NCBI GenBank assembly: GCA_021162085.1
Contig: JAGGZI010000040.1
Span: 1 to 60,248 of the forward strand
Reading direction: 5' to 3'
Source: Candidatus Aenigmatarchaeota archaeon
GTDB lineage: Archaea > Aenigmatarchaeota > Aenigmatarchaeia > PWEA01 > JAGHBM01
Length of the DNA stretch: 60,248 bases
Numbering within the stretch: the stretch's first letter is position 1; the number at the start of each line of letters is the position of its first letter. This document shows, piece after piece, positions 38,156 through 58,584 of this stretch. Under the pieces are notes generated by a model. It saw nothing but the letters and a program-made list of their open reading frames with translations, made no database searches and had not been told where the DNA came from. The position numbers were made by a program, and so were the translations under genes.

Positions 38156-39078
38156 CTTCTACCACCCAGTACATTACTTATTCCGCCAACGGTTGTGTTA
38201 GTTTCCATTGAACCGGTATTGATTTCTCTTATTCTGTTCCTGATGGCCTGCGCTCTCTCGAGCAATCTTGGATTGTTTATCACGGTTTGCTTTACTACTG
38301 CACATCCTGGGTTGTCTGGATGATTTTTGCAGAAGTTTACTATCTTATCTCCTATTCTTTTACATAGAATGGATTCTGAGTGAACCTCACAGTACTTCTT
38401 TGCCCTGTTGAGCTCGAATGGAACACAATACCTGTTAGTTGGATTGTTCTTGCACCAATTTGCGAATTCTTCTCTACATCTTATGTCCTTCATTTTTGTC
38501 TTCATACAGTATGCTCTGAACAATGCTCTGCACCTTGCATCTTCTGGATTGTTCTGACAGTAACTTGCAATCTTTTTGCAGTTCTGGTCTCCTGGATTTT
38601 CTTTACAATACTCTGAGACTTTATCTTTTAGCTCTGAAGGTCTTATTGGTCTGTTTCCTTCAATTATGTATGTGTTGTAGGTTTCACCATTCAGATTAAT
38701 TGTTCCTGCCCATACCTCTGTATCGCCCTTCATCACTGAAGACAAATCGAATGAGCCAGCTTCTGTTCCATTTGCATACATCTTTCCTGTGACTTCTCCA
38801 TCGTTCATTGATATGTTTCTTAGCCTATATCTTGTGTCATCAAGTAGAGCCACTCCCACTGAGAGCGTGTTGTTTCCTGCTACAACTTTCCCTATACCGA
38901 ACTTTATTATCATGAAGTTCATTGGATCGCTGGATGATGCTATTATACCTTTTCCAAGTACCATCAATGATTCTATCTTTACTCTTCCTTGGTTTGCTGG
39001 TGTATTTGTTGGACCCTGTGCCATTGCTGGGATTGCCAACAACGATAAGGTAATAAGTATTACCAATATCTTCTTCAT
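38152..39078 (-). CDS. Secreted protein with six tandem Cx8-9C units
   Basis: Signal peptide MKKILVILITLSLLAIPAMA. Cys pairs at 158/167, 174/183, 191/201, 209/218, 230/239 and 250/259, several as C-[KQ]-N-[NH]-P-x4-C. Confidence 0.6.
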   Translation of the reverse strand: MKKILVILITLSLLAIPAMAQGPTNTPANQGRVKIESLMVLGKGIIASSSDPMNFMIIKFGIGKVVAGNNTLSVGVALLDDTRYRLRNISMNDGEVTGKMYANGTEAGSFDLSSVMKGDTEVWAGTINLNGETYNTYIIEGNRPIRPSELKDKVSEYCKENPGDQNCKKIASYCQNNPEDARCRALFRAYCMKTKMKDIRCREEFANWCKNNPTNRYCVPFELNRAKKYCEVHSESILCKRIGDKIVNFCKNHPDNPGCAVVKQTVINNPRLLERAQAIRNRIREINTGSMETNTTVGGISNVLGGRR

Positions 39079-45928: not shown

Positions 45929-46255
45929 TTACTTATTTAATCCCATACAGCACATCGATTCTGCCTTCTCTAGTTTTTTTTGGTTGTTGGGAGGATTCCA
46001 TTTATAACCCAATGTACAGTTTATCGCATCCACAAGGTCTCCATAGTTGCTCATGTCGCTTGCTTTAATCTTATCATCGCATCCTCCGGCAGAAACGAAT
46101 TTCTGACACTCGGCACTGAGTTTTGCCTGACATTTCATGGTACTTGATGGTGTTCCAAATGCACCAACGAAGAAAGCCACAATTCCAAGGAGCACTATCA
46201 GTCCAACGGCAAGTATTATTATTGTATTTATCGGTATTGACATACCTTTTTTCAT
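45929..46255 (-). CDS. Pilin-like protein with class III signal peptide and 6-Cys C-domain (paralogue A)
   Basis: MKKG|MSIPINTIIILAVGLIVLLGIVAFFV, then MKCQAKLSAECQKFVSAGGCDD ... CC. Last gene of the pilus operon. Confidence 0.7.
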   Translation of the reverse strand: MKKGMSIPINTIIILAVGLIVLLGIVAFFVGAFGTPSSTMKCQAKLSAECQKFVSAGGCDDKIKASDMSNYGDLVDAINCTLGYKWNPPNNQKKLEKAESMCCMGLNK

Positions 46256-46265
46256 ATATTCACCT

Positions 46266-46556
46266 TTAGGTTGTGATTGTTGTTGAATTCTGACAACAAG
46301 TATCTCTTACATCTGCTTCACTTATTCCCATACATGATGCTGCATTTTTTAAAGAGTCTAAATCTCCTTTGTTTATGTCATCGCATCCACCAGCTGCAAC
46401 GTATTTGGCACATTCAGCATTCCACTTTGCCTGACATTTCATGGTGTTGCCACCCGGCGTTGCCGAACCCATGAATATGGCAAGAAGTGAGGCAAGCACA
46501 ATCAGCCCAATAACTAATATAATTATCGTATTTATCGACATTGATATTCCTTTCAT
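46266..46556 (-). CDS. Pilin-like protein with class III signal peptide and 6-Cys C-domain (paralogue B)
   Basis: MKG|ISMSINTIIILVIGLIVLASLLAIF, then MKCQAKWNAECAKYVAAGGCDD ... CC. Confidence 0.7.
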   Translation of the reverse strand: MKGISMSINTIIILVIGLIVLASLLAIFMGSATPGGNTMKCQAKWNAECAKYVAAGGCDDINKGDLDSLKNAASCMGISEADVRDTCCQNSTTITT

Positions 46557-46566
46557 TTTAAATCAC

Positions 46567-48912
46567 CTACTCCCATGGGTTTGAAACAACTACAGCTTTT
46601 ATCCAATCTATTTTCAAATTAAAACCATTACCATTCCAATAATTCGGGCATATATCTATTCTTTTCACTTTTCTACTGGTATCGAATCCATTAAAGGTGA
46701 TTTCTTCTGGATATGAAATTGAATTTACCGTATAGTAATCATGACCATTCATTAATACATTTCCAAGTCCAAGTTTACTGCAATCATCACCCACATAACA
46801 TACAAATGGATAAATATCAATATTCGGATTTGTAAAGCTGTCTGTCGCTGAGTATCTCATTTTCAATGAGTAGATGTACATTGGATTACTTTCTAAATCT
46901 ATTTTTATACATTGTGCAACAAAATAGTCTTTGAGACCAGCCGATGAGTAATAAGCGTTACACCTTCCAGTCTGGGTTGAAGAACCCTTCATATCAAGAC
47001 ATAGATAGTCACTATCTTGCCAATCGCTGCAATACCGCCGAATACAATTATCATCATTACAGTCCTGGTCAATTGTTATATCATTTTCACATGTTGTAGA
47101 TCGGCAGCCTCCTTTAATTTTTGTTATGTTTGGATTTAGACATATAGTTTTTAAGCATCCCTCATTTGTGCACAAGCCACTTACCTGTGAGCAGCTTGGG
47201 CAGAACTCACTTCTGATACAATAACAAGCACTCGAAGATGCATCACCACAACCAAAGTTATTTCCTGTTGTGTCAAAGTAAAATGGAAGTTGTTTATAAC
47301 TTATGCAAGTGTCTAAAATTGAAAGAGGACCAGCCACACATTGCGGATTTGGAGTAGTAATTGTGTTTCTGCATGCTCCATAAGAATTGGCATTTAAATG
47401 CTTACATGCAGCATCACAGGGATCTGCAGGCTTTTGTGCACATCCTGAGTTGTCGTTGTTACACCCATAAGCACATTGTTGAATTGGTCCGACAGATTCC
47501 ACACATCCATCTCCATTCGTATCCGCACAATTTAGTAAATATGCTTTACCATCCTCTCCTACATAGCATGTTGTGCCACCATTTTCAAGTCCATGTTGTA
47601 CACATATTTGTTCCGGTTGACATGGAGGTTTAGTTAAGCTCTCATTTGTTGTGAATTTGACCCAGGCAATTTTATGGTCTTTGCTATCACGTTTTGGACA
47701 AATATCTATCATATCCAATTTTTTGTCTACAAAGATATGGTTCAAAACATTGTATCCCTCAACATCTTCTGCAATGGTATGCCACCCATCACCATTGTTA
47801 TTACAACTTCCATCGTAACAACCAAAAACATAAAGGTCATTGTGTCCGTCATCAGAGCCAGACCTGAACCACAAATCTTTTACATATACAGATTTTCCAT
47901 AGAAATCTTTGAAATTTAATCGAAGACATTGGCCAGTTTCGATGTTAGACCTTTTACAATCTCCGGATTGATCTAAACATATTGTAATATCATTATTTAC
48001 ATTTTGGTATGGATCTGAGTATAAATAATATATTTTTAGCGGAATACTAGTACAATCCGAAGATATGCCATCACTTATTCTATCTTTTTGGCAACCAGTT
48101 GACGAAACACTACAACCAATTTTCTCCAATAAACTCTTGCCTGGAACTTTTTCAGAATTGGCACAGTATTCAGTAAAATTATTAATATTTCCATACTCTT
48201 TTTTACAATCTTCTTCCGTTTTATCTATTGGGCAACATACATTTAGATTTTTATTCCATTCCCAATCTTCCGGACAACAATAATAATATGTGAAATTTGT
48301 ATAAGTTTCTCCAAAAATCCCAGAATAGTGTGAAGAGATTTTATATTTAAAAAACAAATTTTGTCCACTGAAGTAATTATTTTCAACGGGAGATGATAAA
48401 GAATATATACAATTATGCACTCCTTTATATTCACACTTTGGTTGATCTTTCACGCTATTGGTGAAGTCTGGGGAAGTAGAGTCAAAACCTTTGTATATCT
48501 CCGTTTTAAGTGCTGAAGTTTCTCCATGAGACATACCAGTAAGAACTCTCCCCGAAGCTTGAGTATTTTTTATAATACAACTTCCTTCTCCTCCAGGAAC
48601 ATCACATCTCCACTTAGTCTCAATTTCATGAGATTTTTTTTCATTTTTATTGTCTACTTTTTGTTCTATAACTACAAAAGTATATTCCGGTGACGATTGA
48701 TCACTCAGGCAGGTTATTGAGGCTCCCTGATTCTCATTCTCACTTCCATTGAACATTTCCCACGCATTGCTTATGATGTCACTAACTGAACGAATTGGCT
48801 TAGCCTGGTGCATCATACCAAGACCAAACCCAAGGACGGCGAGGGCAAGGATTATGGTTACAACAACAATTATAACACTACTACCGACACCCTTACCATT
48901 TCCCATATTCAT
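46567..48912 (-). CDS. Giant Cys-rich pilin-like protein (781 aa), putative tip adhesin
   Basis: MNMGNGKG|VGSSVIIVVVTIILALAVLGFGL class III-like N-terminus. Roughly 70 Cys. Internal duplication of a ~110-135 aa module ending IDICP...W[VI]K[FA]. Confidence 0.7.
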   Translation of the reverse strand: MNMGNGKGVGSSVIIVVVTIILALAVLGFGLGMMHQAKPIRSVSDIISNAWEMFNGSENENQGASITCLSDQSSPEYTFVVIEQKVDNKNEKKSHEIETKWRCDVPGGEGSCIIKNTQASGRVLTGMSHGETSALKTEIYKGFDSTSPDFTNSVKDQPKCEYKGVHNCIYSLSSPVENNYFSGQNLFFKYKISSHYSGIFGETYTNFTYYYCCPEDWEWNKNLNVCCPIDKTEEDCKKEYGNINNFTEYCANSEKVPGKSLLEKIGCSVSSTGCQKDRISDGISSDCTSIPLKIYYLYSDPYQNVNNDITICLDQSGDCKRSNIETGQCLRLNFKDFYGKSVYVKDLWFRSGSDDGHNDLYVFGCYDGSCNNNGDGWHTIAEDVEGYNVLNHIFVDKKLDMIDICPKRDSKDHKIAWVKFTTNESLTKPPCQPEQICVQHGLENGGTTCYVGEDGKAYLLNCADTNGDGCVESVGPIQQCAYGCNNDNSGCAQKPADPCDAACKHLNANSYGACRNTITTPNPQCVAGPLSILDTCISYKQLPFYFDTTGNNFGCGDASSSACYCIRSEFCPSCSQVSGLCTNEGCLKTICLNPNITKIKGGCRSTTCENDITIDQDCNDDNCIRRYCSDWQDSDYLCLDMKGSSTQTGRCNAYYSSAGLKDYFVAQCIKIDLESNPMYIYSLKMRYSATDSFTNPNIDIYPFVCYVGDDCSKLGLGNVLMNGHDYYTVNSISYPEEITFNGFDTSRKVKRIDICPNYWNGNGFNLKIDWIKAVVVSNPWE

Positions 48913-48954: not shown

Positions 48955-50613
48955 TTATCCGGTCTGAACACAATACAATCTGTTTTTATTATTACATCCA
49001 CTTGAGATTATATCAACCCAGTTGAAACTATTCTCATTTGATAAACCAAGATGGCCAAAGTCCTCGTCGTCTCCTGTAGTCCATCCGTCTTTATCTGATG
49101 TCCAGTCTCTACAAGAATTATTTTCCTCATATTGCCCAGTTTTGTTGCTTCCTGTCCAAACATAATAACCATTCGCGATGAGATTACCATTTTCGTCATA
49201 ATTTATTGCATTTTCTATTGAGCCATCCCACAGGTCATCACAGTCCGTAGATATCACGTCTCCGTGAGTATTCTTTAAGTAACAGTTTGATATTCTATTC
49301 CTGGCATCTGTATTCGAGTCCGATAGGAGTGCTACGAACGTGCCACTTAATCCAGCATTACTTGCAAGTTCCTGACATTTCGCATCTGCTCCACTAAGCC
49401 CACCAAGCGAACCATTGTAAACTTCAGATGTCACGAAGATTATTCTATATGGGGTAACTATGCAACCATTCTCATTTTCACACTTGTCTATGCCACAGTT
49501 ACAGGATTGTTGATACTCACAATAGCAGCTTTGTCCAGACTGGCAGTTGGCTTTTTCTTTCTTCACCCAATAGTTGCATAAGCCACCTGAGCACGCATTG
49601 ACTGGATAATCAATATCACATTTTGAGTCAATGGCACTTTCACATACATTTTCTACTATCCTTGTGAAACTCATCGTATCCTCTATGCCAAATGTTAGAG
49701 CAAGTTTTTTCATGCCATCGGGAGTTGGAATTTTAGTGGATTTATCTATAACACTTACACTTATTACAAATGAAGCTTTGTAGTTGTTGAATCCCATATT
49801 CAATAAATTCATCTTCACCAGTTTTAGTTCCCATTCGATGTTATTATCATTTTTACCATTTGCTATTTCATTCAACTTGGATTGAATTTTGTTTTTAGCT
49901 TCATTTTCGGATAATGTTCCACCTTCAGAGCCGCAGACTTTGACATAATCTAATACATCCTTAAGTTCACTTTTCAAATCATTAATATTATTAACGAAGT
50001 TCTTAGCCTTGTCGTACAAAATGAAGTATTTTGTGGGAATGTCAGTTTCTATCTTTTCATTACCTTCGATTGTTTGATTTAATGATTCATCGCCTTGGTA
50101 TTTGTTGCTTGAGAATAAGTTTGCTTCATAACTTAGTTTTATTTTTGAATTTGTGTAGTCCATTTTTATTTTTGGTGTAGGATCATCGAGATATCTATTA
50201 ACTTTTACGTCAAGGTCAGAAGCGAAGTTATCAAACCATCCTTTATATGTTTCGTTTATTCTGCTACCAAGCTGGGAGGCAACATCATCCTTACTTGGAT
50301 AATTATCCTTTGACCAGCATACATATCCTTCGCATTTGCCCCATGTGTTGTATTCGGTAGAATCTTTATCCAATCCACCATTTAAGCCGTTCTCATACAG
50401 AGAGTTCACTCCGGACAACCAGAGAGCATTTCCTAAAAATTGTTTATCTGCATCATAGTGTGCCTGTGCTTCCATGAGTTTCCCTTCGTCAAGCATTATG
50501 GTGTATCCCACAGAATTCTTTGTGAGTTTAATAGATTCATACGAAATTACTCCACCAACAATTATTCCAGTGATTATTATTAGTGCAATCACGAGTCCAG
50601 CGATGCCCTTCAT
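48955..50613 (-). CDS. Pilin-like protein (552 aa) with C-terminal endostatin/C-type-lectin-like domain
   Basis: MKG|IAGLVIALIIITGIIVGGVISY N-terminus; Cys-knot-like middle. C-terminus: GSLGGLSGADAKCQELASNAGLSGTFVALLS ... VWTGSN ... CRDWTS ... RLYCV. Confidence 0.7.
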   Translation of the reverse strand: MKGIAGLVIALIIITGIIVGGVISYESIKLTKNSVGYTIMLDEGKLMEAQAHYDADKQFLGNALWLSGVNSLYENGLNGGLDKDSTEYNTWGKCEGYVCWSKDNYPSKDDVASQLGSRINETYKGWFDNFASDLDVKVNRYLDDPTPKIKMDYTNSKIKLSYEANLFSSNKYQGDESLNQTIEGNEKIETDIPTKYFILYDKAKNFVNNINDLKSELKDVLDYVKVCGSEGGTLSENEAKNKIQSKLNEIANGKNDNNIEWELKLVKMNLLNMGFNNYKASFVISVSVIDKSTKIPTPDGMKKLALTFGIEDTMSFTRIVENVCESAIDSKCDIDYPVNACSGGLCNYWVKKEKANCQSGQSCYCEYQQSCNCGIDKCENENGCIVTPYRIIFVTSEVYNGSLGGLSGADAKCQELASNAGLSGTFVALLSDSNTDARNRISNCYLKNTHGDVISTDCDDLWDGSIENAINYDENGNLIANGYYVWTGSNKTGQYEENNSCRDWTSDKDGWTTGDDEDFGHLGLSNENSFNWVDIISSGCNNKNRLYCVQTG

Positions 50614-51035
50614 TTGTAAAACCTCAACTGAATATTTTCATATCCACCTAGAACTGCAATCTTTCTGAAGGCGGTGTAGTGTTTCCCATTCAAATCTATG
50701 TTATTTGGGTTAAGTGTTTGGTCCTTAAACACCAACACGGCTTTGTAATTTCCAAACATATCGTTGAATTTGTTTTTGATAATTGTCTTTATGTTGTCAT
50801 CTCCTGTGATAAGGTATTCACTTATAAGATCTCTCATAGTAATTCCGTTGACCCTCATTCCAAGGAAAGAGTTAAATGTTAATTCTGGAAAAGTTGGTTC
50901 GGCTATCTCTTCTTTTATATCTGACTTGAATTCCAAGAGGTGATAAGAGTGTAGAACTGTCAGAAGCATAACTGCAAATATTATACCAATCGATATCATT
51001 GCAATGAAAAAACATGTGACAATTCCCTTTCTCAT
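50610..51035 (-). CDS. Pilin-like protein (141 aa)
   Basis: MRKG|IVTCFFIAMISIGIIFAVMLL. 4-nt overlap with the downstream gene. Confidence 0.6.
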   Translation of the reverse strand: MRKGIVTCFFIAMISIGIIFAVMLLTVLHSYHLLEFKSDIKEEIAEPTFPELTFNSFLGMRVNGITMRDLISEYLITGDDNIKTIIKNKFNDMFGNYKAVLVFKDQTLNPNNIDLNGKHYTAFRKIAVLGGYENIQLRFYK

Positions 51036-51046
51036 AAACTACACCA

Positions 51047-51583
51047 CTAAATGGGAGGTAACGATGTTGAACCTTTTGGTGGAAGCTTGTAATATGTCTT
51101 CAACTTGAGGATTGCAGGCTCGTCTCCACCATCAGACCTTATTAGAACAGGCAATGTGATCTGAATTCCAGGCTTTTTACCAAAGAGCCACAGGAATGGA
51201 AGTATCATGGATTGTTTTGGCTCATTCGTGAGGTCATAACTAAAGTCCCATTTGTCATTGGAGGAACTTATCGTTAAGTCAAAGTACGTCCTGTACATCT
51301 TTACACAATCTATGTCACCAGTTTGTTTCCTTTCATCCAGGAGAGTTTTATTCAAAATTCCCATTTCTCCTGTGCTGAAGCAATCCTTTGAAGTTAATAT
51401 CCTACTGAGCATGGACATCTGTACAATTTCTTGAGTCACTATGTCTGCTCCTTCCTCTTCCTGCTTGAGTATCCCAGCGAAGAATCCTATGGAAAAGGCG
51501 AGCGCAAAGACTAGCAAAATGAAGGCAAAAATACAAACAATCGTGTTTATTCCAAATCCTTTGTTAGAGATCACTCTTTCCAT
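51047..51583 (-). CDS. Pilin-like protein (178 aa)
   Basis: MERVISNKG|FGINTIVCIFAFILLVFALAF. Confidence 0.6.
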   Translation of the reverse strand: MERVISNKGFGINTIVCIFAFILLVFALAFSIGFFAGILKQEEEGADIVTQEIVQMSMLSRILTSKDCFSTGEMGILNKTLLDERKQTGDIDCVKMYRTYFDLTISSSNDKWDFSYDLTNEPKQSMILPFLWLFGKKPGIQITLPVLIRSDGGDEPAILKLKTYYKLPPKGSTSLPPI

Positions 51584-51993
51584 ATGGATATAACATCACC
51601 ATTTTTGTCTATATGAACTATCGTATTTCCATGGTTGCATTCTATGGTTGACGGCACCTCGATTTTTGTGTCGTTTAAGAAGTACATACCATATGTCATC
51701 TGATTTAGACCTTTGGTTGTGGTTTTTATGTACTTATTTGTTGAGTCAAGTGTCATAGTGCATGATAGGGCACCTATTTTAATTTTTGCTGTTTGGTTCT
51801 GCGGGCTTGAGGAAATTATGTTCATGATACCCACAACGCTCTGTGTTATTGATGTAGCCCTTGAGAGACCCAATATATTGCTTCCCCATCCGCCAACCTT
51901 AGCATACACAACACCAAAGAAAAATGCGATTATCACAGTTATCAAAAGCATCATCATAAGATTCATCATGGCTCCCTTTTTCATTTTCACCAA
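51571..51993 (-). CDS. Pilin-like protein (140 aa)
   Basis: MVKMKKG|AMMNLMMMLLITVIIAFFFGVVYA. Overlaps both neighbours. Confidence 0.6.
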   Translation of the reverse strand: MVKMKKGAMMNLMMMLLITVIIAFFFGVVYAKVGGWGSNILGLSRATSITQSVVGIMNIISSSPQNQTAKIKIGALSCTMTLDSTNKYIKTTTKGLNQMTYGMYFLNDTKIEVPSTIECNHGNTIVHIDKNGDVISIWKE

Positions 51994-52802
51994 CCCAGAC
52001 TATGGTGTTTTGAACAACTCCAGTCTTTGGACTTTTCCGGCCAATTTGTATCTACTGGTTCGGATGTTATACCAAACGGTCCTTCAAAAAGCCTAATAGT
52101 AGATTTAATTATAGTACCTCCTAAATCAACAGGATCATTGTTCCAGCAAAAGTTTTTATCCGATGTGAATCCATCCTTCTTACCAAGATTTCTTATCTTA
52201 CAAATTTTTATTTTGTCTTTAGTTTTGTCGTAGTAAACCTTAACCTCTGCTCCACATGGGCTTAAAAGCCAGAATGGTTCCACCTTACCTGATAGGTCCT
52301 TATCAAATTCCACTTTGTCGTTGTTGCTCATTTCAACCATTCCATAGCAGATTCCGTTAGGACATTTATCATAAACAACATGTTGAACATCTGTGAATGT
52401 TATTTCATAAAGTATGATTCCTATGCTACCTTTTTCTCCACCTTTCTCTCTGCTATGGTATATTATCCATTTTGGGTCGTTTCCATAACTGTAGTCACCA
52501 CCATGTACATAATATGTTATACCCTTTGTCAGTTGTTGTGGCATGGTTATGTTAACTTTTTCCTCGCAGTCCTCAGGGTGTCCGTTTGTCTTGCTCTCTT
52601 CCTCCTGAACGCACTGATAGACTCCTTTTATTGCATCTCCAAGCCTAAGAGCACTACCGGTTGTTGCGGCTCCCTCGGAGAGAACTTGATTGGCACCAAG
52701 GGCATGCCATATAACTACGAGGAGTACGAATCCAATTGCTACGGACAGGAAAATGGTCAACAAGTGTCCAACTTCAGTTCCCTTCACAAAATCACCCAAC
52801 AT
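51987..52802 (-). CDS. Pilin-like protein (271 aa)
   Basis: MLGDFVKG|TEVGHLLTIFLSVAIGFVLLVVIW. Several Cys in the globular part. Confidence 0.6.
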   Translation of the reverse strand: MLGDFVKGTEVGHLLTIFLSVAIGFVLLVVIWHALGANQVLSEGAATTGSALRLGDAIKGVYQCVQEEESKTNGHPEDCEEKVNITMPQQLTKGITYYVHGGDYSYGNDPKWIIYHSREKGGEKGSIGIILYEITFTDVQHVVYDKCPNGICYGMVEMSNNDKVEFDKDLSGKVEPFWLLSPCGAEVKVYYDKTKDKIKICKIRNLGKKDGFTSDKNFCWNNDPVDLGGTIIKSTIRLFEGPFGITSEPVDTNWPEKSKDWSCSKHHSLGW

Positions 52803-52938
52803 TTATGTTACCTACAATGTCTTCTATTCTTGGTTTTATTCCCATCAATATTATTATGAGTATTATTGATAACACTATCAAAAACACTATTACAGTCCAT
52901 AGTACTCCAGATGTTTTCTCCCATGTTAGAAGGCCCAT
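52792..52938 (-). CDS. Mini membrane/pilin-like protein (48 aa, not in ORF track)
   Basis: Hand translation: MGLLTWEKTSGVLWTVIVFLIVLSIILIIILMGIKPRIEDIVGNINVG. The ATG overlaps the upstream stop (TAATG). Its own stop overlaps the next gene's start region. Confidence 0.45.
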   Translation of the reverse strand: MGLLTWEKTSGVLWTVIVFLIVLSIILIIILMGIKPRIEDIVGNINVG

Positions 52939-53093
52939 TATCCACCACCCTGAAGTACCTTGCCCATTTCATTTATAAGGTCAAATGTTTTTCCATGAAC
53001 TTTTCCATAAAGGAAGAAAATGAAAAGTGCAATGATTATGAAAATTATTATCACCAACAATGCAGCAAGTACGCCTCCAATACCTTTTCTCAT
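52938..53093 (-). CDS. Mini-pilin-like protein (51 aa, not in ORF track)
   Basis: Hand translation: MRKG|IGGVLAALLVIIIFIIIALFIFFLYGKVHGKTFDLINEMGKVLQGGG. ATGA overlap with the upstream stop. Paralogous to 53090..53257. Confidence 0.5.
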   Translation of the reverse strand: MRKGIGGVLAALLVIIIFIIIALFIFFLYGKVHGKTFDLINEMGKVLQGGG

Positions 53094-53257
53094 GTGTTCA
53101 CCTTTCCTATAACTTGGTTGAATATTTTTTCAAGGGCATCAAGCCCAAATTTTTTTCCCTGATTAAGTATGAGAACAACTATACCGAGGATGACAAGTAT
53201 TAATATGAAGGCTATAAGAAACCATATTATTTGTGATATACCTTTTTTCTTCAACAT
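53090..53257 (-). CDS. Mini-pilin-like protein (55 aa)
   Basis: MLKKKG|ISQIIWFLIAFILILVILGIVVLILNQGKKFGLDALEKIFNQVIGKVNT. The internal Met is preferred to the ORF-track start at 53284. Confidence 0.5.
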   Translation of the reverse strand: MLKKKGISQIIWFLIAFILILVILGIVVLILNQGKKFGLDALEKIFNQVIGKVNT

Positions 53258-53445
53258 CCACAAGGACCTCCCGGTAGAAGCCATGTTCTTAAAGGACCTG
53301 CAATCTTAAAATTACAGTAAATCCAACATCCAGCATTTTTCAGTGATAAACCATATCCCTTTACACCACTATAGACAGCAAAGACAAACATGAAGAGAAT
53401 TAAGAACACTATCAGGGCAAGTATGACTGCAACTGTCTTATTCAT
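53251..53445 (-). CDS. Small membrane protein with 4-Cys tail (64 aa)
   Basis: MNKTVAVILALIVFLILFMFVFAVY, then ...NAGCWIYC...GGPCGC. AAGGAG lies upstream of the ATG. Confidence 0.45.
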   Translation of the reverse strand: MNKTVAVILALIVFLILFMFVFAVYSGVKGYGLSLKNAGCWIYCNFKIAGPLRTWLLPGGPCGC

Positions 53446-53477
53446 ACTAAGATTTTATTCTCCTTAAAATATAAAAC

Positions 53478-53609
53478 CTACGGAAGGACAAATTTGTATG
53501 TACTGCTCAAAGCTTTACTTACATAGGGAACTATGAGAGAAAATGATATTGCAGCAACCACAATGAACACTATTATTATGAGGACGATTTTGAGTGTGGT
53601 ATCTTCCAT
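53478..53609 (-). CDS. Small single-TM protein (43 aa)
   Basis: MEDTTLKIVLIIIVFIVVAAISFSLIVPYV.... ATG 53609 lies 4 nt after the stop of 53614..53733. Confidence 0.4.
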   Translation of the reverse strand: MEDTTLKIVLIIIVFIVVAAISFSLIVPYVSKALSSTYKFVLP

Positions 53610-53613
53610 ATTA

Positions 53614-53733
53614 TCACAACCAGTTGCCAAAGAAGTTGTAAAACATACCAACAACCCCAAGCAATATTAAAAGGGCAATTGCAATGGCTATTACAACTTC
53701 CTTAAGTCCATATCCAACCAAACCTTTATGCAA
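53614..53733 (-). CDS. Possible mini-pilin-like protein (39 aa, TTG start, not in ORF track)
   Basis: Hand translation: (M)HKG|LVGYGLKEVVIAIAIALLILLGVVGMFYNFFGNWL. The TTG overlaps the FlaJ-like stop. Weakest member of the series. Confidence 0.3.
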   Translation of the reverse strand: MHKGLVGYGLKEVVIAIAIALLILLGVVGMFYNFFGNWL

Positions 53734-55798
53734 GTGAACCACCCGTCAGCAAATCTTCTATCATCGGTCCAAACATACTGTACGTTACGACCAAACTCAA
53801 TGTATATATTATTAAACCAATTAATAAACTCCACCCAACAAGGTCCCTTTCACTTATCTTGTCTCCTGGACCGTTCTCAACGCCATTTATGAGATAAGAA
53901 AGAAGATATATGACCTCTATCGTGTATATGCCTACAATAATCTGGAAGAATCCAAGTGGCATTATCTTTCCAACTCCTCCCCAACCTCCTATCATTGTTT
54001 GAGTAAATCCGGGAATCTTTGAGCTCTGGAGGTTTGTCATGCTTTCTCCAAGGGCCTTGAAAATCATCATCATTATTGCCGCCATGGTTATGGTCACACC
54101 GGATATCAATGGAGCAAGAAACATTGATAGGAATTTCATACTTGTTGTAACTTCTCCAAGCATCTCCTTGAGGTCCTCATTTATCTGATGAAGTTGTTTT
54201 ATGTAACGTGATATTGCCATGGCGCTCAACGCAGCGTTCTTAACTCCCTTCTTTGCTGCCTCAAATATTATTCTCATAACGTTCACGATAAGCTTTGATG
54301 GATAATCCCATACTGCTCCGAACTTCTTATCAAACAATGCTGCCTCAAGTGCCAATCCACCCTGCCTCATATTCCTTAAAGTCTTCTTGAACATCTGAGA
54401 TATTGTGAGGTCGGAAGTCTTTTCAACGGTTTGTTCCATGGCCTTCTCCATGGGATTACCAAGAGCCATCCTGCTGCCAAACTGGAAGAGTGCTTCTGAG
54501 AACTCGTCCTGAAGCTTCCTGACGTTGTCCCTTATCTTGGTTTTGGTTCCGCTGTCTATTATAAACACTGAGGATATACCAAGTCCAATTCCCCATGTTA
54601 TTATTAAGGAGTACATAAGATTTCCAAGGCTTATCTGGGATGCACTACCAAGGGTCAAGAGTGCCCCAGGTACTATCAGTGCCAATGATATGAATAGTCC
54701 AATTGGCCACAGGGAAATATCTTTTTTAACATTTCCAATGGTTATTTTTATTCTTCCAACGGGGCTGTACTTCGGGTGCATCGATATGTCAGGAGAGTAA
54801 TAGCTTACTGGTCTATAGGATAGAACTTTTTTGGTTATGGCAAATATGGTCAGTGGCAGGATTACATCATACATAACAATCAATAACAAGGGATCTATGG
54901 TTTCGCTCATCATCAGCATGACAACAGGCATCATAACAAGGAGAAGTATTGGTAGCATTATACCAAGGGCATATATTAACATGACTGGCATCCTCAGGGA
55001 TTGTGAGTAGTGTTTCATCCTTTCCTTTGTTCCCTCAAGTATTCTATTGACTGCCTCATCCAGCATGGCATTTCTTCTTGTTTCAGGTTGCTCCATGGAA
55101 GACCTTATGAGGTGCATCGACTCTATGAAATCTTCGTTACCCTTCCATTTATCCACATAATCCTCCACAGCATCGTAAATGTTTTCATACCTTCTTACAT
55201 CAACGTCCCATAGAATTTTCCTCAGGTCGTAGGCAAGTGGACCCGTGAGGTTTTGCGCGGCAAATTTTATTGCACCTTCCATGTTTGGGGAGGCTCTCAT
55301 GTATATTACCATGTACAGGACGGCAAGGATTATTTCCTGAGAAGCATTAACCCTAAATTGATTTGCTAGATACATTGGATATTTCATCAAACCATAGATC
55401 ACCAGAACTGAGAGTACGAACAACGATATGGTGAGGGTGAAGTTAACAGTGACGAACAGTACTATTACGGCAATGATCATTAAGAGAATACCCATGATAA
55501 TTGCAAGGGAGAATGCACCAACGGGCGTTATCTTCAAGTGGGCAAAGTCTATTGCCATTTGCATGTTCTTTCTCGTTTCCTTATCAGGCTCTATGTTCAA
55601 TGGCTCAAAAATCTTACATAATTTTTCATAAAGTGTTGTTTTTTCTCTCATCTCTTCTTCTTTGAAGGTTTGATATTCCTTGCTGTGGGGGTTTATTTCA
55701 AATTCTTCCGGTAACTCGATTGCTGGCATTGACTCATTCAGAATTCTCTTCAACTCTTCAATCCTAGCTTTTCTAAGGTCTTTGGGGGGTTTTGCCAT
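53726..55798 (-). CDS. FlaJ/TadC-type (T2SS-F-like) polytopic platform protein
   Basis: 690 aa. Two cytoplasmic helical domains alternate with clusters of TM helices. Located directly downstream of the secretion ATPase. Confidence 0.8.
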   Translation of the reverse strand: MAKPPKDLRKARIEELKRILNESMPAIELPEEFEINPHSKEYQTFKEEEMREKTTLYEKLCKIFEPLNIEPDKETRKNMQMAIDFAHLKITPVGAFSLAIIMGILLMIIAVIVLFVTVNFTLTISLFVLSVLVIYGLMKYPMYLANQFRVNASQEIILAVLYMVIYMRASPNMEGAIKFAAQNLTGPLAYDLRKILWDVDVRRYENIYDAVEDYVDKWKGNEDFIESMHLIRSSMEQPETRRNAMLDEAVNRILEGTKERMKHYSQSLRMPVMLIYALGIMLPILLLVMMPVVMLMMSETIDPLLLIVMYDVILPLTIFAITKKVLSYRPVSYYSPDISMHPKYSPVGRIKITIGNVKKDISLWPIGLFISLALIVPGALLTLGSASQISLGNLMYSLIITWGIGLGISSVFIIDSGTKTKIRDNVRKLQDEFSEALFQFGSRMALGNPMEKAMEQTVEKTSDLTISQMFKKTLRNMRQGGLALEAALFDKKFGAVWDYPSKLIVNVMRIIFEAAKKGVKNAALSAMAISRYIKQLHQINEDLKEMLGEVTTSMKFLSMFLAPLISGVTITMAAIMMMIFKALGESMTNLQSSKIPGFTQTMIGGWGGVGKIMPLGFFQIIVGIYTIEVIYLLSYLINGVENGPGDKISERDLVGWSLLIGLIIYTLSLVVTYSMFGPMIEDLLTGGSLA

Positions 55799-56310: not shown

Positions 56311-58584
56311 TTATATATGAGTTGTCTGAGTTTTCTTCCATTTTTTTATCTGTTCCTTCATCCAGTCATCCCACATCTTGTATGCCCTTTCCGGTGGTAT
56401 CGAGCCCACCTCTTCCCTTAGCTCCTCAGAGATTAAATGAAACTTCTCGTTTGATAACACCACAAATGGGGCTTCCATGAGTTCTTTTATTCCCGTGTTC
56501 AGGGCATAGTTTGTTATGGCCTGTTTTATTTTTCCTCTGAGGTTTATGTTGTCCCATACTGCTGACCAGTTGCCTGACCATTCTCTTATGTTAGATGCTA
56601 TTTCATTCAATATAACACTTTCCCCGTTTAGAAGTGTGGATGTTGGCTTTAGAGTATCCTCCTTTGCCGAATATTCCATAAGGTTCACGAAGCCTCCCTC
56701 TTCAACGGGGTCTTTCCTCCAGTGCTTTCTTACTTCCGTTACGGTTGTTACCCTCCTGAATCTATGAAGTCCATCTGCTGACTTGAGTATGTTGCATATT
56801 ATCACAAGGTCGGTTGCCTTGAAGGATGTTACTGGAACTCCCAGGTCATTTACAACACGGTCAAATATACCATAAGCACTTTCCCCGTGAATTGTCCCAG
56901 CAACTGTGTTTGCAAGAGCACCAATTCTCATTGCCTCGTAAAGTGCCTTTGCCTCTGTGGACCTGACCTCACCAAGTATTAGACAGGAATCTCCAAGTCT
57001 TAGGGCAGTTCTTATGGCTTCCTCGGTTGGCATCTCAGTTTCCACCTGTGTTATCACGGAACGGGATTTTAATCTCTCTATGTTGAATCCAAGTTCTCTC
57101 ATCCTCTTGACACTCAGTTCAAGTGTATCCTCAACGGTGACTATTCTATATTTCTTCATTATCTCAAGCATTGACGCATTTAGGAGTGAGGTTTTTCCTG
57201 ATGATCTGGTCCCGCCAATGAGGAATGTTCTTGAACCATCGATTACAAAGGACATCAGCCCTGCAAATAGTGGATTAAAGAATCTTATATCTGGCTTAAG
57301 GTAAAGTGGGTAAGTCCATGGATCATCTCTGTGCCTCCTTATTGAGAATCCAAATCCATCAGGAGATAGGGATCTCGTTATCACGGTTATTCTTGCCCTT
57401 CCCCCGGGCACCATAGCCTCCGTGTCAAGCACCGGATTTGCCTCATCCAGTGGTCTACCAGACATCATCCTGAATCTTGTTACCCAATATTCGGCATCCT
57501 CATGAGTTGGTATCAGATTGGTTTCACACTCCTGGTAATCCTGATGAAATATGTATATGGGTATCTCCCCAATTGGAGAATTTATGTATATGTCTTGAAT
57601 CTTTTTGTCTGCGAGCAGAACCTCAAGTATTCCAAGTCCCCCGGTATATCTTGTCAGTATCTCGGTAAGTTCTTCCACGTCCTGAGTCGAAAGCCTGATT
57701 CCCATCTGATCAGATAAGTCTGTTATGAGGTCTCTTCCTATGTTAGAAAATACTTCCCTCATTTTTTCTGGCTCGGTGAATTCTAAGGCTCTCGGCTTAT
57801 GTTCGGTTAGATATCTCCTTGCGGCATCTAAAATTGTGTATTTGTCCTCACCCAATCTGAACTCAGGGGGAACAACATGGTATACATATCTAACGGAGTT
57901 TGGTACTTTGTATATCTCTACCTCCACATCACCACCAATCTTATACCTATCTATTATCTCTCCGCCCCTTGGTGGCTGGGTCATGTACTTAGTTAACATG
58001 AAGTTTGGTCTAGTTGTGGGGTGGAATATCTCCCTGTATACGCCTCTATCGCCAATTTTATATTTGGACATGAATGGTTTTGCCTTCTTTATCAGATCAA
58101 GATTCTCTAATGTAGTTATGGTTGGAATCAATACGTTATCAAGTAGTTTCTGATAACATATTTGAGTTCTTCCCGTAACGGACTCTATTTTTATCCTAGT
58201 ATGCCTTATCAATCTCTTTATTTTTTCGTAGGCGGCAATCGGGTCGGACCTCAGATCGCTGAGCACGATACTTTGAAATTTAGAAAAAACTTCGCCCGTA
58301 TAGCCCATGCACTCTCTTCCAGCCCTTAAAGGGCTTATCAACTTCTTCGTTTTTATTATCTCATTTATTGCAGAGGCAAGTTGCGCAAGCATTTTAGTTT
58401 GTTCAAACGGGTATTCGTATTCCCTATTTTTAGCGAGAACTATGCTCTTGACGTTCTTGGTCTCTATAAGCTTGTCAATCGTTCGTGCCATACAGGCAGG
58501 ATAATCCTCTATACTGGAACCATATATACAACCAAGGCAATTAACCCTCATTGTTCCGTCCTTCATCTCATACTCGCAGACCAT
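56311..58584 (-). CDS. Type II/IV secretion-family ATPase (FlaI/PilB/VirB11-like) with long N-terminal extension
   Basis: Walker A IGGTRSSGKTSLLNA, Asp box VTVEDTLEL, Walker B CLILGEVRSTEA, His-box-like GTIHGES. The N-terminal ~300 aa include C3/C16/C19/C31. Confidence 0.9.
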   Translation of the reverse strand: MVCEYEMKDGTMRVNCLGCIYGSSIEDYPACMARTIDKLIETKNVKSIVLAKNREYEYPFEQTKMLAQLASAINEIIKTKKLISPLRAGRECMGYTGEVFSKFQSIVLSDLRSDPIAAYEKIKRLIRHTRIKIESVTGRTQICYQKLLDNVLIPTITTLENLDLIKKAKPFMSKYKIGDRGVYREIFHPTTRPNFMLTKYMTQPPRGGEIIDRYKIGGDVEVEIYKVPNSVRYVYHVVPPEFRLGEDKYTILDAARRYLTEHKPRALEFTEPEKMREVFSNIGRDLITDLSDQMGIRLSTQDVEELTEILTRYTGGLGILEVLLADKKIQDIYINSPIGEIPIYIFHQDYQECETNLIPTHEDAEYWVTRFRMMSGRPLDEANPVLDTEAMVPGGRARITVITRSLSPDGFGFSIRRHRDDPWTYPLYLKPDIRFFNPLFAGLMSFVIDGSRTFLIGGTRSSGKTSLLNASMLEIMKKYRIVTVEDTLELSVKRMRELGFNIERLKSRSVITQVETEMPTEEAIRTALRLGDSCLILGEVRSTEAKALYEAMRIGALANTVAGTIHGESAYGIFDRVVNDLGVPVTSFKATDLVIICNILKSADGLHRFRRVTTVTEVRKHWRKDPVEEGGFVNLMEYSAKEDTLKPTSTLLNGESVILNEIASNIREWSGNWSAVWDNINLRGKIKQAITNYALNTGIKELMEAPFVVLSNEKFHLISEELREEVGSIPPERAYKMWDDWMKEQIKKWKKTQTTHI

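What the first reader, a model, noticed from the sequence alone, without database searches (positions are those of the whole stretch)
48964..49452. Endostatin / C-type-lectin-like domain at the C-terminus of an archaeal pilin-like protein
Seen: residues ~388-550 of the 552-aa pilin-like protein read IIFVTSEVYNGSLGGLSGADAKCQELASNAGLSGTFVALLSDS ... YYVWTGSNKTGQYEENNSCRDWTS ... GCNNKNRLYCV. From memory, the collagen XVIII endostatin domain reads ...[34 protein letters not shown] ... [22 protein letters not shown] ... CHHAYIVLCIE. The conserved G-x-x-GAD-x-x-C, GL-x-GTF-x-A-x-LS, VW-x-GS, C-x-x-W and final C-x5-6-[LV]-x-C all line up, including all four Cys. Established: endostatin has a C-type-lectin-like fold, and a bacterial relative (DUF1554, Leptospira-type) exists as I recall. 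Inference: a lectin-fold ligand-binding head on a prepilin N-terminal helix would be a tip adhesin. I am not aware of this domain fusion having been described in Archaea.
Basis: partly seen in the sequence, partly recalled or inferred. Interest (0 to 1): 0.7.

Follow-up and report, generated by a model that had tools for sequence, protein, structure and literature searches.

The report
Archaeal pilin-like protein with endostatin-like head
A DPANN archaeon (Aenigmarchaeota) encodes, inside a type-IV-pilus-like operon, a pilin-like protein whose C-terminus is a well-supported endostatin/DUF1554 (C-type-lectin-like) domain. It is most likely a swappable binding head displayed on a pilus, a design known from bacterial 'modular pilins' but not described for Archaea in the literature I could search.

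Summary
Residues 388-552 of the 552-aa ORF (48955-50613, minus strand) pass the Pfam gathering thresholds for DUF1554 and Endostatin. They model at pLDDT 94 and superpose only on collagen XVIII/XV endostatin (TM 0.81, E 8e-12). All four endostatin Cys are kept, plus one private Cys pair.

The window is an Aenigmarchaeota MAG contig. The gene lies in a conserved operon: a FlaI-like ATPase, a platform protein, and about ten consecutive genes with '[KR]G + hydrophobic helix' N-termini.

The N-terminal ~380 aa form a rare family (16 hits among 1.84 billion representatives). Its leader length varies, its KG is near-invariant, and its C-terminal heads are exchangeable. The syntenic ortholog carries a different head.

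The same head is fused to at least three other archaeal pilin-type N-termini. It is also fused to bacterial N_methyl pilins, mostly in CPR bacteria.

Best reading: a modular minor-pilin-like adhesin. It is not endostatin proper (no Zn site, acidic), not a canonical Ca-dependent lectin, and not a DGR target. Filament incorporation, tip position and ligand are inferred. Novelty is moderate: an archaeal variant of a known bacterial design.

The parts
48955..50613 (-). Whole gene: 552-aa modular pilin-like protein (NCBI MCD6478004.1, locus J7K87_03300, Ca. Aenigmarchaeota MAG).
   Evidence: ORF list. Exact database match with source names.
50605..50613 (-). Residues 1-3 (MKG): short class-III-like leader. 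The putative prepilin-peptidase cleavage site lies after Gly3.
   Evidence: K2 and G3 are nearly invariant (at least 90%) in the 17-member family, although leaders vary from 1 to 9 residues before KG. Cleavage itself is inferred.
50533..50604 (-). Residues 4-27: the only hydrophobic segment of the protein. It is predicted to be helical (alpha1N-like).
   Evidence: Kyte-Doolittle 19-residue windows above 1.6 occur only at residues 1-30. The AF2 model gives a helix at 4-27, but with low pLDDT.
49654..50532 (-). Residues 28-320: conserved alpha/beta module of a rare archaeal family (a long helix at 36-77 packed on beta-sheets).
   Evidence: Only 16 hits among 1.84 billion representatives. AF2 pLDDT is mostly 85-98. 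No significant PDB structural neighbour.
49453..49653 (-). Residues 321-387: Cys-rich stalk or linker (11 Cys) that ends the conserved module.
   Evidence: Sequence. Cys columns are conserved in the family consensus. Beta-strands with pLDDT about 83-91. The homology of P0002 and P0047-54 ends at about residue 375-382.
48958..49452 (-). Residues 388-552: endostatin-like / DUF1554 head (C-type-lectin-like fold). It has 6 Cys and is acidic (pI 4.2).
56311..58584 (-). Type-IV-filament assembly ATPase (FlaI/T2SSE-like, 757 aa, with a long N-terminal extension).
   Evidence: Pfam T2SSE 55.9 bits. The best NCBIfam hit is FlaI at 126 bits, below the family cutoff.
53726..55798 (-). Polytopic platform protein (T2SSF/TadC/FlaJ-like, 690 aa).
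   Evidence: Weak Pfam T2SSF hit: 21.6 bits, GA 25.2. Same operon position as the 686-aa gene in syntenic locus L001.
52792..53742 (-). Run of tiny ORFs (42-64 aa). Several are little more than '[KR]G + hydrophobic helix'.
   Evidence: ORFs of 64, 55, 53 and 47 aa occupy the same position in L001.
50610..52802 (-). Four consecutive pilin-like genes (271, 140, 178 and 141 aa) with KG + hydrophobic N-termini. They are candidate minor pilins.
   Evidence: They are syntenic with the 243, 133, 172 and 143-aa genes of L001.
46567..48912 (-). A 781-aa protein with 6.7% Cys and a KG/VGSS N-terminus, carrying two copies of an unassigned ~110-aa domain. It is a probable second modular subunit.
   Evidence: Its ortholog lies downstream of P0002 in L001.
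45929..46556 (-). Two tandem paralogous small pilin-like genes (108 and 96 aa). They are candidate major subunits.
   Evidence: The two copies are 75-78% identical at nucleotide level.

Best explanation
The gene encodes a modular, minor-pilin-like subunit of an archaeal type-IV-filament (pilus-like) system in an Aenigmarchaeota (DPANN) archaeon.

The protein has four parts.
- A short class-III-type leader (MKG).
- A hydrophobic helix that would anchor it in the filament core.
- A conserved ~350-aa alpha/beta module, ending in a Cys-rich stalk, that acts as a scaffold.
- A C-terminal head of 165 aa with the endostatin/DUF1554 fold, stabilised by the two canonical disulfides and probably a third.

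The post-helix part is about 520 aa. That is too bulky for the filament body, so the protein is most likely displayed at or near the tip, together with the neighbouring small pilin-like proteins. The head would bind a surface ligand on a partner or host cell or on a substratum.

The head is an exchangeable cassette. Orthologous scaffolds in related archaea carry other heads.

Shown here: domain identity, fold, conserved Cys, operon context, head exchange, and recurrence of the fusion. Inferred: signal-peptide cleavage, incorporation into a filament, tip position, adhesin function, and the ligand.
For: Head identity:
- Pfam DUF1554 and Endostatin above GA on the isolated domain.
- Sequence match to PDB endostatin.
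- AF2 pLDDT 94.4.
- Foldseek TM 0.81 and E 8e-12 to endostatin only.
- Four invariant Cys aligned to endostatin's.

Archaeal origin: Alba, proteasome alpha, SBDS, exosome, ABCE1, Rad50/HerA/NurA and TFB genes in the window, and the NCBI name.

Filament context:
- A FlaI/T2SSE-like ATPase and a T2SSF-like platform lie upstream on the same strand.
- Every '[KR]G + hydrophobic' N-terminus in the 60-kb window falls within 45.9-53.7 kb.
- KG is near-invariant in the family despite leaders of different length.
- There is a single N-terminal hydrophobic helix.

Head exchange:
- The N-terminal module has 16 relatives. They carry Cys-rich tails, a Stig1-like tail or an unassigned ~170-aa head, and none has DUF1554.
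- Locus L001 is syntenic on both sides of the gene, but its ortholog P0002 carries a different head.

Recurrence:
- The same head follows other archaeal pilin-type N-termini: L008/P0072/P0076, L005/P0110 and P0159. L008 is next to an ATPase and platform genes, and L005 is flanked by pilin-like genes.
- It also follows bacterial N_methyl pilins, mostly in CPR bacteria. This architecture is listed in Raynaud 2021 Dataset S1.

Functional precedents:
- Leptospira Len (DUF1554-type) proteins are adhesins for laminin and fibronectin (PMC2063517).
- Bacterial modular pilins such as PilB and PilC are adhesins proposed to sit at the tip (PMC8179133).
- Lectin-like minor pilins mediate host binding in episymbiotic Saccharibacteria (PMC11623550).

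Composition is homogeneous across head and scaffold, which argues against a chimera.
Against: - No pilin-family profile (Pfam or NCBIfam) hits the N-terminus.
- The N-terminal model has no significant PDB neighbour. Its predicted alpha1 is broken at residues 28-35 and has low confidence.
- The residues after KG do not all fit the published FlaFind-type pattern as I recall it (from memory; not run).
- No prepilin peptidase gene was found among the window ORFs I scanned.
- In Archaea, class III signal peptides also occur on non-filament surface proteins, for example the bindosome sugar-binding proteins.
- The head is acidic (pI 4.2) and lacks endostatin's Zn and heparin sites. It also lacks the Ca/sugar motifs of C-type lectins, so no ligand can be proposed from homology.
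- This exact scaffold + DUF1554 combination is a singleton in the databases searched.
Confidence: 0.6

Rival explanations
1. The protein is a class-III-signal or signal-anchored cell-surface protein that is not polymerised into a filament. It would stay tethered to the membrane or to a short pseudopilus or bindosome-like assembly, presenting the head at the cell surface as a receptor or binding protein.
For: - No pilin-family or pilin-fold match for the N-terminal module.
- The ATPase also shows similarity to the bindosome ATPase BasE (E 8e-14).
- Makarova 2016 notes that large signal-peptide proteins in archaeal T4P loci 'could be either an adhesin or a S-layer protein'.
- The protein is very bulky for a pilin.
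Against: - The gene is embedded in a run of about ten pilin-like genes, in conserved order, directly downstream of the ATPase and platform genes. This is the layout of minor-pilin operons.
- Bacterial modular pilins of similar size are incorporated into filaments.
- The ATPase scores higher against FlaI than against BasE.
Confidence: 0.22
2. The head is not an adhesin. It would serve another role, for example a structural cap that helps the filament cross the cell envelope, an enzyme, or a decoy or immune-evasion-like binder.
For: - No ligand-binding motif can be transferred. Zn, heparin and Ca/sugar sites are all absent.
- The DUF1554 function is unknown outside Leptospira.
- The 2026 TFF preprint suggests that some locus-encoded surface domains may prime the cell wall for filament passage.
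Against: - Every experimentally studied member of this fold group binds macromolecular ligands: endostatin, Len proteins and C-type-lectin-like domains.
- The head is exchangeable for unrelated heads on the same scaffold. That fits variable ligand recognition better than a conserved structural role.
Confidence: 0.12
3. The C-type-lectin-like head is the variable protein of a diversity-generating retroelement (DGR). DGRs are common in DPANN and CPR genomes.
For: The fold class and the lineage fit the usual DGR targets. This rests on established knowledge only; no result obtained here supports it.
Against: - No direct or inverted repeat of the head-coding region (48958-49452) exists anywhere in the 60-kb window.
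- No reverse transcriptase was seen among the ORFs scanned.
- The head is a DUF1554/endostatin type, not the FGE-sulfatase/Mtd type.
Confidence: 0.02
4. The fusion is an assembly or binning artefact: a chimeric join of an archaeal gene with a bacterial DUF1554 gene.
For: - This scaffold + head combination is a singleton.
- The head's nearest relatives by distance include bacterial sequences such as Micavibrio and CPR.
Against: - The reading frame is continuous.
- The join falls exactly at the end of the conserved Cys-rich stalk.
- GC and GC3 of the head (0.40 / 0.34) match the scaffold (0.36 / 0.35) and the window (0.38).
- Synteny is conserved on both sides of the gene.
- The same protein is recorded on 3 contigs from several sources.
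- Independent archaeal MAGs have analogous fusions.
Confidence: 0.02

Closest known systems
Bacterial modular type IV pilins (e.g. Streptococcus sanguinis PilB with a vWA module and PilC with a ConA-like lectin module; Raynaud et al. 2021, PMC8179133; Shahin et al. 2023, PMC9934059)
   Same: - An N-terminal class-III-signal pilin part carries a bulky functional module grafted at the C-terminus.
- The gene lies among minor-pilin genes.
- The proposed position is at the tip, with a role in adhesion.
- The modules are highly varied. Dataset S1 of that paper even lists 'IPR012902 - IPR011448' (2 proteins), which I take to be N_methyl + DUF1554. I confirmed such fusions in CPR loci.
   Different: - That class is defined on the bacterial N-methylation motif (IPR012902/PF07963), which this protein lacks.
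- The paper does not mention Archaea.
- The scaffold here is a ~380-aa archaeal module with no detectable relation to bacterial pilin modules.
- The machinery here is archaeal (FlaI-like ATPase).
DUF1554 (PF07588) proteins, including the Leptospira Len endostatin-like outer-membrane adhesins (Stevenson et al. 2007, PMC2063517)
   Same: Same domain family (above GA), same four Cys and the same GGLxGAD-x-x-C motif. Both are surface-exposed. Len proteins bind laminin, fibronectin and factor H.
   Different: - Len proteins are bacterial lipoproteins, not pilin fusions.
- NCBIfam LenA/B and LenF models score far below their cutoffs: 23.9 vs 300 and 19.7 vs 400.
- Len-ligand binding is ionic and heparin-competed, whereas this head is acidic.
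Endostatin (NC1 C-terminal domain of collagens XVIII and XV)
   Same: Same fold (TM 0.81, rmsd 2.8 A), about 22% identity, the same four Cys positions, and a shared core motif.
   Different: - No collagen, trimerisation or hinge context.
- The N-terminal Zn ligands His1, His3 and His11 are absent.
- There is no basic heparin-binding surface: pI is 4.2, against about 9.3 for human endostatin (computed from a sequence recalled from memory).
- It has an extra Cys pair (C444/C458).
Predicted adhesins or large minor pilins in archaeal T4P/TFF loci (Makarova et al. 2016, PMC4858521; 2026 TFF preprint 10.64898/2026.04.22.720090)
   Same: Large signal-peptide proteins encoded in archaeal type-IV-filament loci and hypothesised to be tip adhesins. 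The locus layout here (ATPase with a long N-terminal extension, a single platform gene, many pilins, large adhesin-like proteins) resembles what the preprint calls 'system 2'.
   Different: - Those papers describe DUF2341/PilY-like, Ig-rich or galactose-binding domains. The terms 'lectin', 'modular' and 'Aenigm' give no occurrences in the preprint, and 'lectin', 'fusion' and 'DPANN' give none in Makarova 2016. I did not search either paper for 'DUF1554' or 'endostatin'.
- I could not assign an arCOG or a system class.
Lectin-like minor pilins PilX1/PilX2 of episymbiotic Saccharibacteria (PMC11623550)
   Same: An ultrasmall putative symbiont, a minor pilin with a C-terminal accessory binding domain, and an experimentally shown role in host binding.
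   Different: The heads are different (a beta-jelly-roll and a beta-propeller). The organisms are bacterial, with the bacterial pilin signal.

Membership tests
DUF1554 / Endostatin domain (Pfam PF07588 / PF06482) | Profile HMM score at or above the gathering threshold | tested here: met
   On the isolated domain: PF07588 36.6 bits (GA 27.5) and PF06482 32.2 bits (GA 29.4). On the full-length protein both fall marginally below GA (25.6 and 29.2). The source database also lists both families for this protein.
DUF1554 / Endostatin domain (Pfam PF07588 / PF06482) | Endostatin fold | tested here: met
   AF2 pLDDT 94.4 and pTM 0.90. Foldseek against the PDB gives 1dy1, 1koe, 1dy0, 1bnl and 1dy2 at E 8e-12 to 2e-9 with TMq 0.78-0.81. 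The next hits are C-type-lectin-like domains at E above 0.1.
DUF1554 / Endostatin domain (Pfam PF07588 / PF06482) | Four conserved Cys at the positions of endostatin's Cys33, Cys135, Cys165 and Cys173 | tested here: met
   They are invariant in 30 homologs. All four are aligned in the profile-vs-1koe alignment. The disulfide map is taken from PMC5426730.
DUF1554 / Endostatin domain (Pfam PF07588 / PF06482) | Disulfide geometry C1-C4 and C2-C3 (S-S distances in the structure) | not testable with these tools
   Model coordinates are not exposed. Only the alignment and the overall superposition (rmsd 2.8 A) support it.
Endostatin proper (collagen XVIII/XV NC1) | N-terminal Zn site (His1, His3, His11, Asp76) and a basic heparin-binding Arg surface | tested here: not met
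   The head starts PYRIIFVTSEV, with no His in the first 11 residues. It has 10 K/R against 24 D/E and a pI of 4.19.
Canonical Ca-dependent C-type lectin CRD (Pfam Lectin_C) | A Lectin_C profile match and the EPN/QPD + WND Ca/sugar-binding motifs | tested here: not met
   No Lectin_C hit even at E up to 1. The motifs are absent from the sequence. Structural similarity to C-type-lectin-like domains is only weak: E 0.13 or higher, with query- and target-normalised TM-scores about 0.24-0.46.
Archaeal type IV pilin / class III signal peptide protein | A short charged leader ending in [KR][GA], immediately followed by a hydrophobic helix of about 20 aa | tested here: met
   The sequence reads MKG|IAGLVIALIIITGIIVGGVISY. 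KG is at least 90% conserved in the family while leaders vary from 1 to 9 residues. There is only one hydrophobic segment. FlaFind itself was not run.
Archaeal type IV pilin / class III signal peptide protein | A match to a curated archaeal pilin or archaellin N-terminal family | tested here: not met
   No Pfam or NCBIfam pilin-family hit for this protein or for its pilin-like neighbours.
Archaeal type IV pilin / class III signal peptide protein | Encoded with a type-IV-filament ATPase and platform protein | tested here: met
   A T2SSE/FlaI-like ATPase and a T2SSF-like platform lie upstream on the same strand. The operon is conserved in L001.
Archaeal type IV pilin / class III signal peptide protein | Pilin fold (a long alpha1 packed on an antiparallel beta-sheet) | tested here: inconclusive
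   The model shows helices at 4-27 and 36-77 packed on beta-sheets (pLDDT 83 overall, but below 50 for residues 1-40). No pilin appears among the Foldseek hits; the best is E 2e-3 with TM 0.1-0.2.
Archaeal type IV pilin / class III signal peptide protein | Cleavage by a PibD/FlaK-type prepilin peptidase and incorporation into a filament | not testable with these tools
   No peptidase A24-type gene was found among the window ORFs scanned. The rest of the genome was not available.
Modular type IV pilins sensu Raynaud et al. 2021 | An N-terminal IPR012902/PF07963 methylation motif plus an extra non-pilus domain | tested here: not met
   There is no N_methyl hit, so formal membership in that bacterial class is not met. 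The architecture (pilin-like part + linker + grafted module) is analogous. True N_methyl + DUF1554 fusions exist in L031, L048, L014, P0079, P0108, P0131 and P0162.
Leptospira Len family (NCBIfam NF047482 / NF047483) | Score above the equivalog cutoff | tested here: not met
   23.9 bits against a cutoff of 300, and 19.7 bits against a cutoff of 400.
DGR variable protein | A template repeat matching the variable region, plus a nearby reverse transcriptase | tested here: not met
   No repeat involves 48958-49452. No reverse transcriptase was seen among the ORFs scanned.

The most novel reading that the evidence does not exclude
Pilin + endostatin-like (DUF1554) head fusions could be a recurrent, convergently assembled host-recognition device. 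Under this reading, the same disulfide-stabilised head cassette has been grafted at least four times onto unrelated archaeal pilin scaffolds and several times onto bacterial pilins. Most of those bacterial pilins belong to ultrasmall CPR bacteria, which with DPANN archaea are thought to be episymbionts. The cassette would be exchanged between the two domains of life, and heads would be swapped within operons to retarget the pilus to new partners.
Probability: 0.25. Interest if true: 0.65.

Novelty: new variant of a known kind. Interest (0 to 1): 0.45.

Why it matters
How DPANN archaea recognise and attach to partner cells is largely unknown, and archaeal pilus tip adhesins are essentially uncharacterised.

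This locus offers a concrete, testable candidate:
- a confidently modelled head of 165 aa that can be expressed on its own;
- a rare scaffold family whose heads are visibly swapped between orthologous operons;
- parallel fusions in CPR bacteria.

It extends the 'modular pilin' principle from Bacteria to Archaea. It also gives the widespread but functionally obscure DUF1554 domain a second context, besides the Leptospira Len adhesins, that points to adhesion.

It is not a new kind of system. Both the domain and the design principle are known, and automatic annotation already flags the domain.

Tried and rejected
It was redone with the tighter alignment A2.
2. Foldseek of the N-terminal module against the PDB gave nothing significant, only NTF2-like and CapZ-like noise at TM 0.1-0.2. 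The pilin fold is therefore neither confirmed nor excluded.
3. Foldseek of the head against viral structures (BFVD) gave nothing significant.
4. DGR hypothesis: no template repeat in the window. Rejected.
5. Chimera or recent-transfer hypothesis: composition and synteny argue against it. Rejected.
6. Search for a prepilin peptidase in the window: none among the 29 further ORFs scanned with Pfam. Two ORFs among those scanned gave no Pfam hit (19008-19979 and 38152-39078), and roughly 20 smaller ORFs were not scanned.
8. Phylogeny of the head: only BLOSUM distances were computed. L005, L008 and L055 are mutual nearest neighbours. The window head is about equidistant from Micavibrio, CPR and archaeal heads. 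The direction of transfer is unresolved, and no bootstrapped tree was made.
9. The primary endostatin structure paper (PMC1170513) is not held. The disulfide map was taken from a review instead.
10. Searching the papers for 'IPR011448' found nothing. Equating IPR011448 with DUF1554 therefore rests on my memory, although N_methyl + DUF1554 fusions were confirmed directly.
11. tRNA and Rfam scans of the window found nothing.
Full report
**1. Observation**

The window carries a 552-aa ORF on the minus strand (48955-50613).

Scanned alone, this 165-aa segment passes the Pfam gathering thresholds for two families:
- DUF1554 (PF07588): 36.6 bits against GA 27.5, E 4.6e-9.
- Endostatin (PF06482): 32.2 bits against GA 29.4, E 1e-7.

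In the full-length protein both scores fall just below threshold. The source database nevertheless lists both families for this protein.

Sequence searches against the PDB find only endostatin. phmmer gives E 9.6e-6. A profile of 11 homologs gives E 1.2e-8, and that alignment places all four Cys opposite endostatin's four.

An AlphaFold2 model built on 30 homologs is very confident: pLDDT 94.4 and pTM 0.90. Its only significant Foldseek neighbours in the PDB are the endostatin domains of collagens XVIII and XV (E 8e-12 to 2e-9, TM 0.78-0.81, rmsd about 2.8 A). A long, non-significant tail follows, consisting almost entirely of C-type-lectin-like domains such as CD94, snake-venom lectins, tetranectin and langerin.

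In the 30-sequence alignment the four Cys (protein C413, C501, C540, C548) are invariant. So is the motif GGLxGAD-x-x-C. Endostatin's disulfides are Cys33-Cys173 and Cys135-Cys165, that is C1-C4 and C2-C3 (PMC5426730). The same topology is therefore expected here.

This protein also has two private Cys, C444 and C458, which lie at or next to the two ends of a beta-hairpin (strands 58-60 and 66-69 in domain numbering) in the model. They may form a third bridge. I could not measure distances, because model coordinates are not exposed.

**2. What the head is not**

- It lacks endostatin's N-terminal Zn ligands and its basic heparin-binding surface. The head has 10 K/R against 24 D/E and a pI of 4.2.
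- It has no Lectin_C profile hit and none of the EPN/QPD/WND Ca/sugar motifs.
- It scores far below the NCBIfam cutoffs for the Leptospira LenA/B and LenF families.
- No repeat of its coding region exists in the window, so it is not a DGR target there.

It is best called a DUF1554-type endostatin-like domain. The fold does not reveal its ligand.

**3. Context**

The window is archaeal. It encodes Alba, proteasome alpha, SBDS, exosome Rrp4/41/42, ABCE1, Rad50/HerA/NurA, TFB, ribosomal protein L15e and RNase P p30. It matches NCBI protein MCD6478004.1 from a Candidatus Aenigmarchaeota MAG.

The gene sits in a minus-strand operon, in this order:
- a 757-aa FlaI/T2SSE-like ATPase;
- a 114-aa ORF;
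- a 690-aa polytopic T2SSF-like platform protein;
- a run of tiny ORFs of 42-64 aa;
- pilin-like genes of 271, 140, 178 and 141 aa;
- the 552-aa gene;
- a 781-aa Cys-rich gene;
- two small paralogous pilin-like genes of 96 and 108 aa.

Every '[KR]G + long hydrophobic stretch' N-terminus that my scan found in the 60-kb window lies inside this cluster.

**4. The scaffold and head exchange**

Residues 1-387 belong to a rare family. An exhaustive HMMER scan of 1.84 billion representatives found only 16 members.

All full-length members begin with a leader of variable length (MKG, MRKG, MTNNPKG, MVPLRLDKKG and others). Each leader ends in KG, directly before a hydrophobic stretch of about 20-25 aa. 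K2 and G3 are at least 90% conserved. This is the signature of a class III (prepilin-type) signal peptide.

The AF2 model of this part has overall pLDDT 83, but below 50 for the first 40 residues. It shows an N-terminal helix, a long second helix, beta-sheets and a Cys-rich beta-stalk. It has no significant structural neighbour in the PDB. No pilin-family profile matches it.

Homology among family members stops at about residue 375-382. Beyond that point the C-termini differ: Cys-rich tails, a Stig1-like tail, an unassigned ~170-aa head (P0002 and P0051, 45% identical to each other), or almost nothing. None of the others carries DUF1554.

The locus of P0002 (42% identity over 70% of the query by BLASTP, 47% over the matched region by HMMER) is syntenic gene-for-gene on both sides, including the ortholog of the 781-aa gene. 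The head was therefore exchanged within an otherwise conserved operon.

GC and GC3 of the head match the scaffold and the window. This argues against a chimera or a very recent transfer.

**5. Recurrence elsewhere**

I scanned one genome per GTDB species for the core motif. The scan confirmed 111 DUF1554 loci and kept 80. Most belong to Myxococcota, CPR/Patescibacteria, predatory bacteria, Nitrospirota and Chloroflexota. Five are archaeal.

Archaeal fusions with pilin-type N-termini:
- L008 is another Aenigmatarchaeota MAG. A 304-aa protein reads MKG|VSPIIAVILLILIAIA, then a small beta-domain, a Thr-rich linker and DUF1554 (42.5 bits). It lies next to two more pilin-like genes, a FlaI-like ATPase and two T2SSF-like genes. 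P0072 and P0076 are full-length relatives of it.
- L005 is labelled Methanosarcinales. An 825-aa protein reads KG|QSSLEALSLIG, then a globular domain, six TIG domains and DUF1554. It is flanked by KG|Q-type pilin-like genes. P0110 is a relative of it.
- P0159 has an RKA|QAAMEYMM N-terminus followed by DUF1554.

With the window protein, that makes at least four unrelated archaeal pilin-type N-termini carrying this head.

Bacterial pilins with the N_methyl motif carry it as well. Examples are L031 (Minisyncoccia), L048 (Levyibacteriota), L014, L045 (Saccharibacteria; motif only), P0079, P0086 (motif only), P0108, P0131 and P0162. Among the 80 loci, these bacterial fusions occur in 3 of about 11 CPR loci. 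They occur in none of the bacterial loci assigned to other named lineages; L014 comes from an unclassified 'bacterium' MAG. This is a small sample.

**6. Comparison with what is known**

The design of pilin part + linker + grafted binding module is the 'modular pilin' of Raynaud et al. 2021. They showed that PilB is an adhesin and argued that such pilins sit at the tip. Their census covered bacteria only, using IPR012902. The paper never mentions Archaea, and its Dataset S1 lists 'IPR012902 - IPR011448' twice. Equating IPR011448 with DUF1554 rests on my memory.

Makarova et al. 2016 and a 2026 preprint on archaeal type-IV filaments predict adhesin-like or large minor-pilin proteins in such loci. 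The search terms I tried ('lectin', 'modular', 'fusion', 'Aenigm') gave no occurrences; I did not search those two papers for 'DUF1554' or 'endostatin'.

The only experimentally studied DUF1554-type proteins are the Leptospira Len adhesins, which bind laminin, fibronectin and factor H. In episymbiotic Saccharibacteria, minor pilins with lectin-like C-terminal domains are needed for host binding.

In the held literature, 'DUF1554' appears in four papers. Three concern Leptospira and one concerns fungal DUF1996 proteins; none concerns Archaea.

**7. Mechanism and verdict**

Most likely (about 0.6) the protein is a modular, minor-pilin-like subunit of the filament built by this operon. A prepilin peptidase would process it after Gly3. 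Its hydrophobic helix would anchor it in the filament, and its size would place it at or near the tip. There it would present an exchangeable, disulfide-stabilised endostatin-like head that binds a ligand on a partner cell or surface.

- Shown here: domain identity, fold, Cys conservation, archaeal origin, operon context, head exchange, and recurrence of the fusion.
- Inferred: cleavage, polymerisation, tip position, adhesion, and the ligand.

The main rival (about 0.2) is a class-III-signal surface protein that is not polymerised, comparable to a bindosome component. A non-adhesive role for the head is possible (about 0.1). The DGR and chimera explanations are rejected.

'Lectin-like' refers to the fold only. 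'Tip adhesin' is still an inference. The fusion is neither unique nor invisible to automatic annotation.

I rate it a new (archaeal) variant of a known kind and of moderate interest.

Noticed in passing
window 52792-53742 (minus strand): A run of tiny ORFs (42, 60, 64, 64, 51 and 48 aa). Several are little more than '[KR]G + one hydrophobic helix', for example MRKG|IGGVLAALLVIIIF and KKKG|ISQIIWFLIAF. The syntenic locus L001 has called genes of 64, 55, 53 and 47 aa at the same operon position. They may be ultra-short pilins or assembly factors.
   Followed up: partly
window 46567-48912 (minus strand): A 781-aa protein with 6.7% Cys and a KG|VGSS class-III-like N-terminus, with no Pfam or NCBIfam hit. 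It contains two copies of a ~110-aa domain that also occurs in P0051, a relative of the 552-aa scaffold (E 8e-18). This suggests domain shuffling between adjacent genes of the operon.
   Followed up: partly
P0002 (L001 10001-11686) and P0051 C-termini: An unassigned ~170-aa head domain ending ...CRPY[IL]E[IY]W is shared at 45% identity (E 5e-41). In the syntenic ortholog it occupies the position that DUF1554 occupies in the window protein. It has no Pfam match.
   Followed up: partly
window 45929-46255 and 46266-46556 (minus strand): Two tandem paralogous small pilin-like genes (108 and 96 aa, 6 Cys each). They are 75-78% identical at nucleotide level over the aligned blocks. They are candidate major pilins of the system.
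   Followed up: no
window 22289-22540: A 68-nt unit repeated in tandem (85% identity between the two full copies, with weaker flanking copies). It lies immediately upstream of, and overlaps, the start of the RNase P p30 gene (22524-23213). It has no Rfam match.
   Followed up: no
window 56311-58584 (minus strand): The filament ATPase is 757 aa. The T2SSE core matches only residues ~452-597, so about 440 aa of N-terminal extension have no Pfam assignment.
   Followed up: no
L009 5197-6324; L055 5095-7362; L079 3742-6975: Other archaeal MAG proteins carry DUF1554 without an obvious pilin N-terminus. One has two tandem DUF1554 domains behind a Sec-like signal peptide, followed by a Thr-rich tail (L009). 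One is a Cys-rich multidomain protein (L055). One is a surface protein of more than 1000 aa (L079).
   Followed up: partly
window 30251-37036: A clustered archaeal DNA-end-processing module: Rad50 (31450-33480), HerA (34483-36033) and NurA (36017-37036). The gene at 30251-31462 may be Mre11, but I did not scan it. This looks ordinary.
   Followed up: no
L002 (Micavibrio MAG) match at 6001-6489: The head's closest relative by BLOSUM distance (0.57) sits inside an open frame of about 2161 aa in a predatory bacterium. The N-terminus of that frame (…GNVFFTLFGAVAVVGVLGAG…) might be a Flp/Tad-type pilin signal.
   Followed up: no
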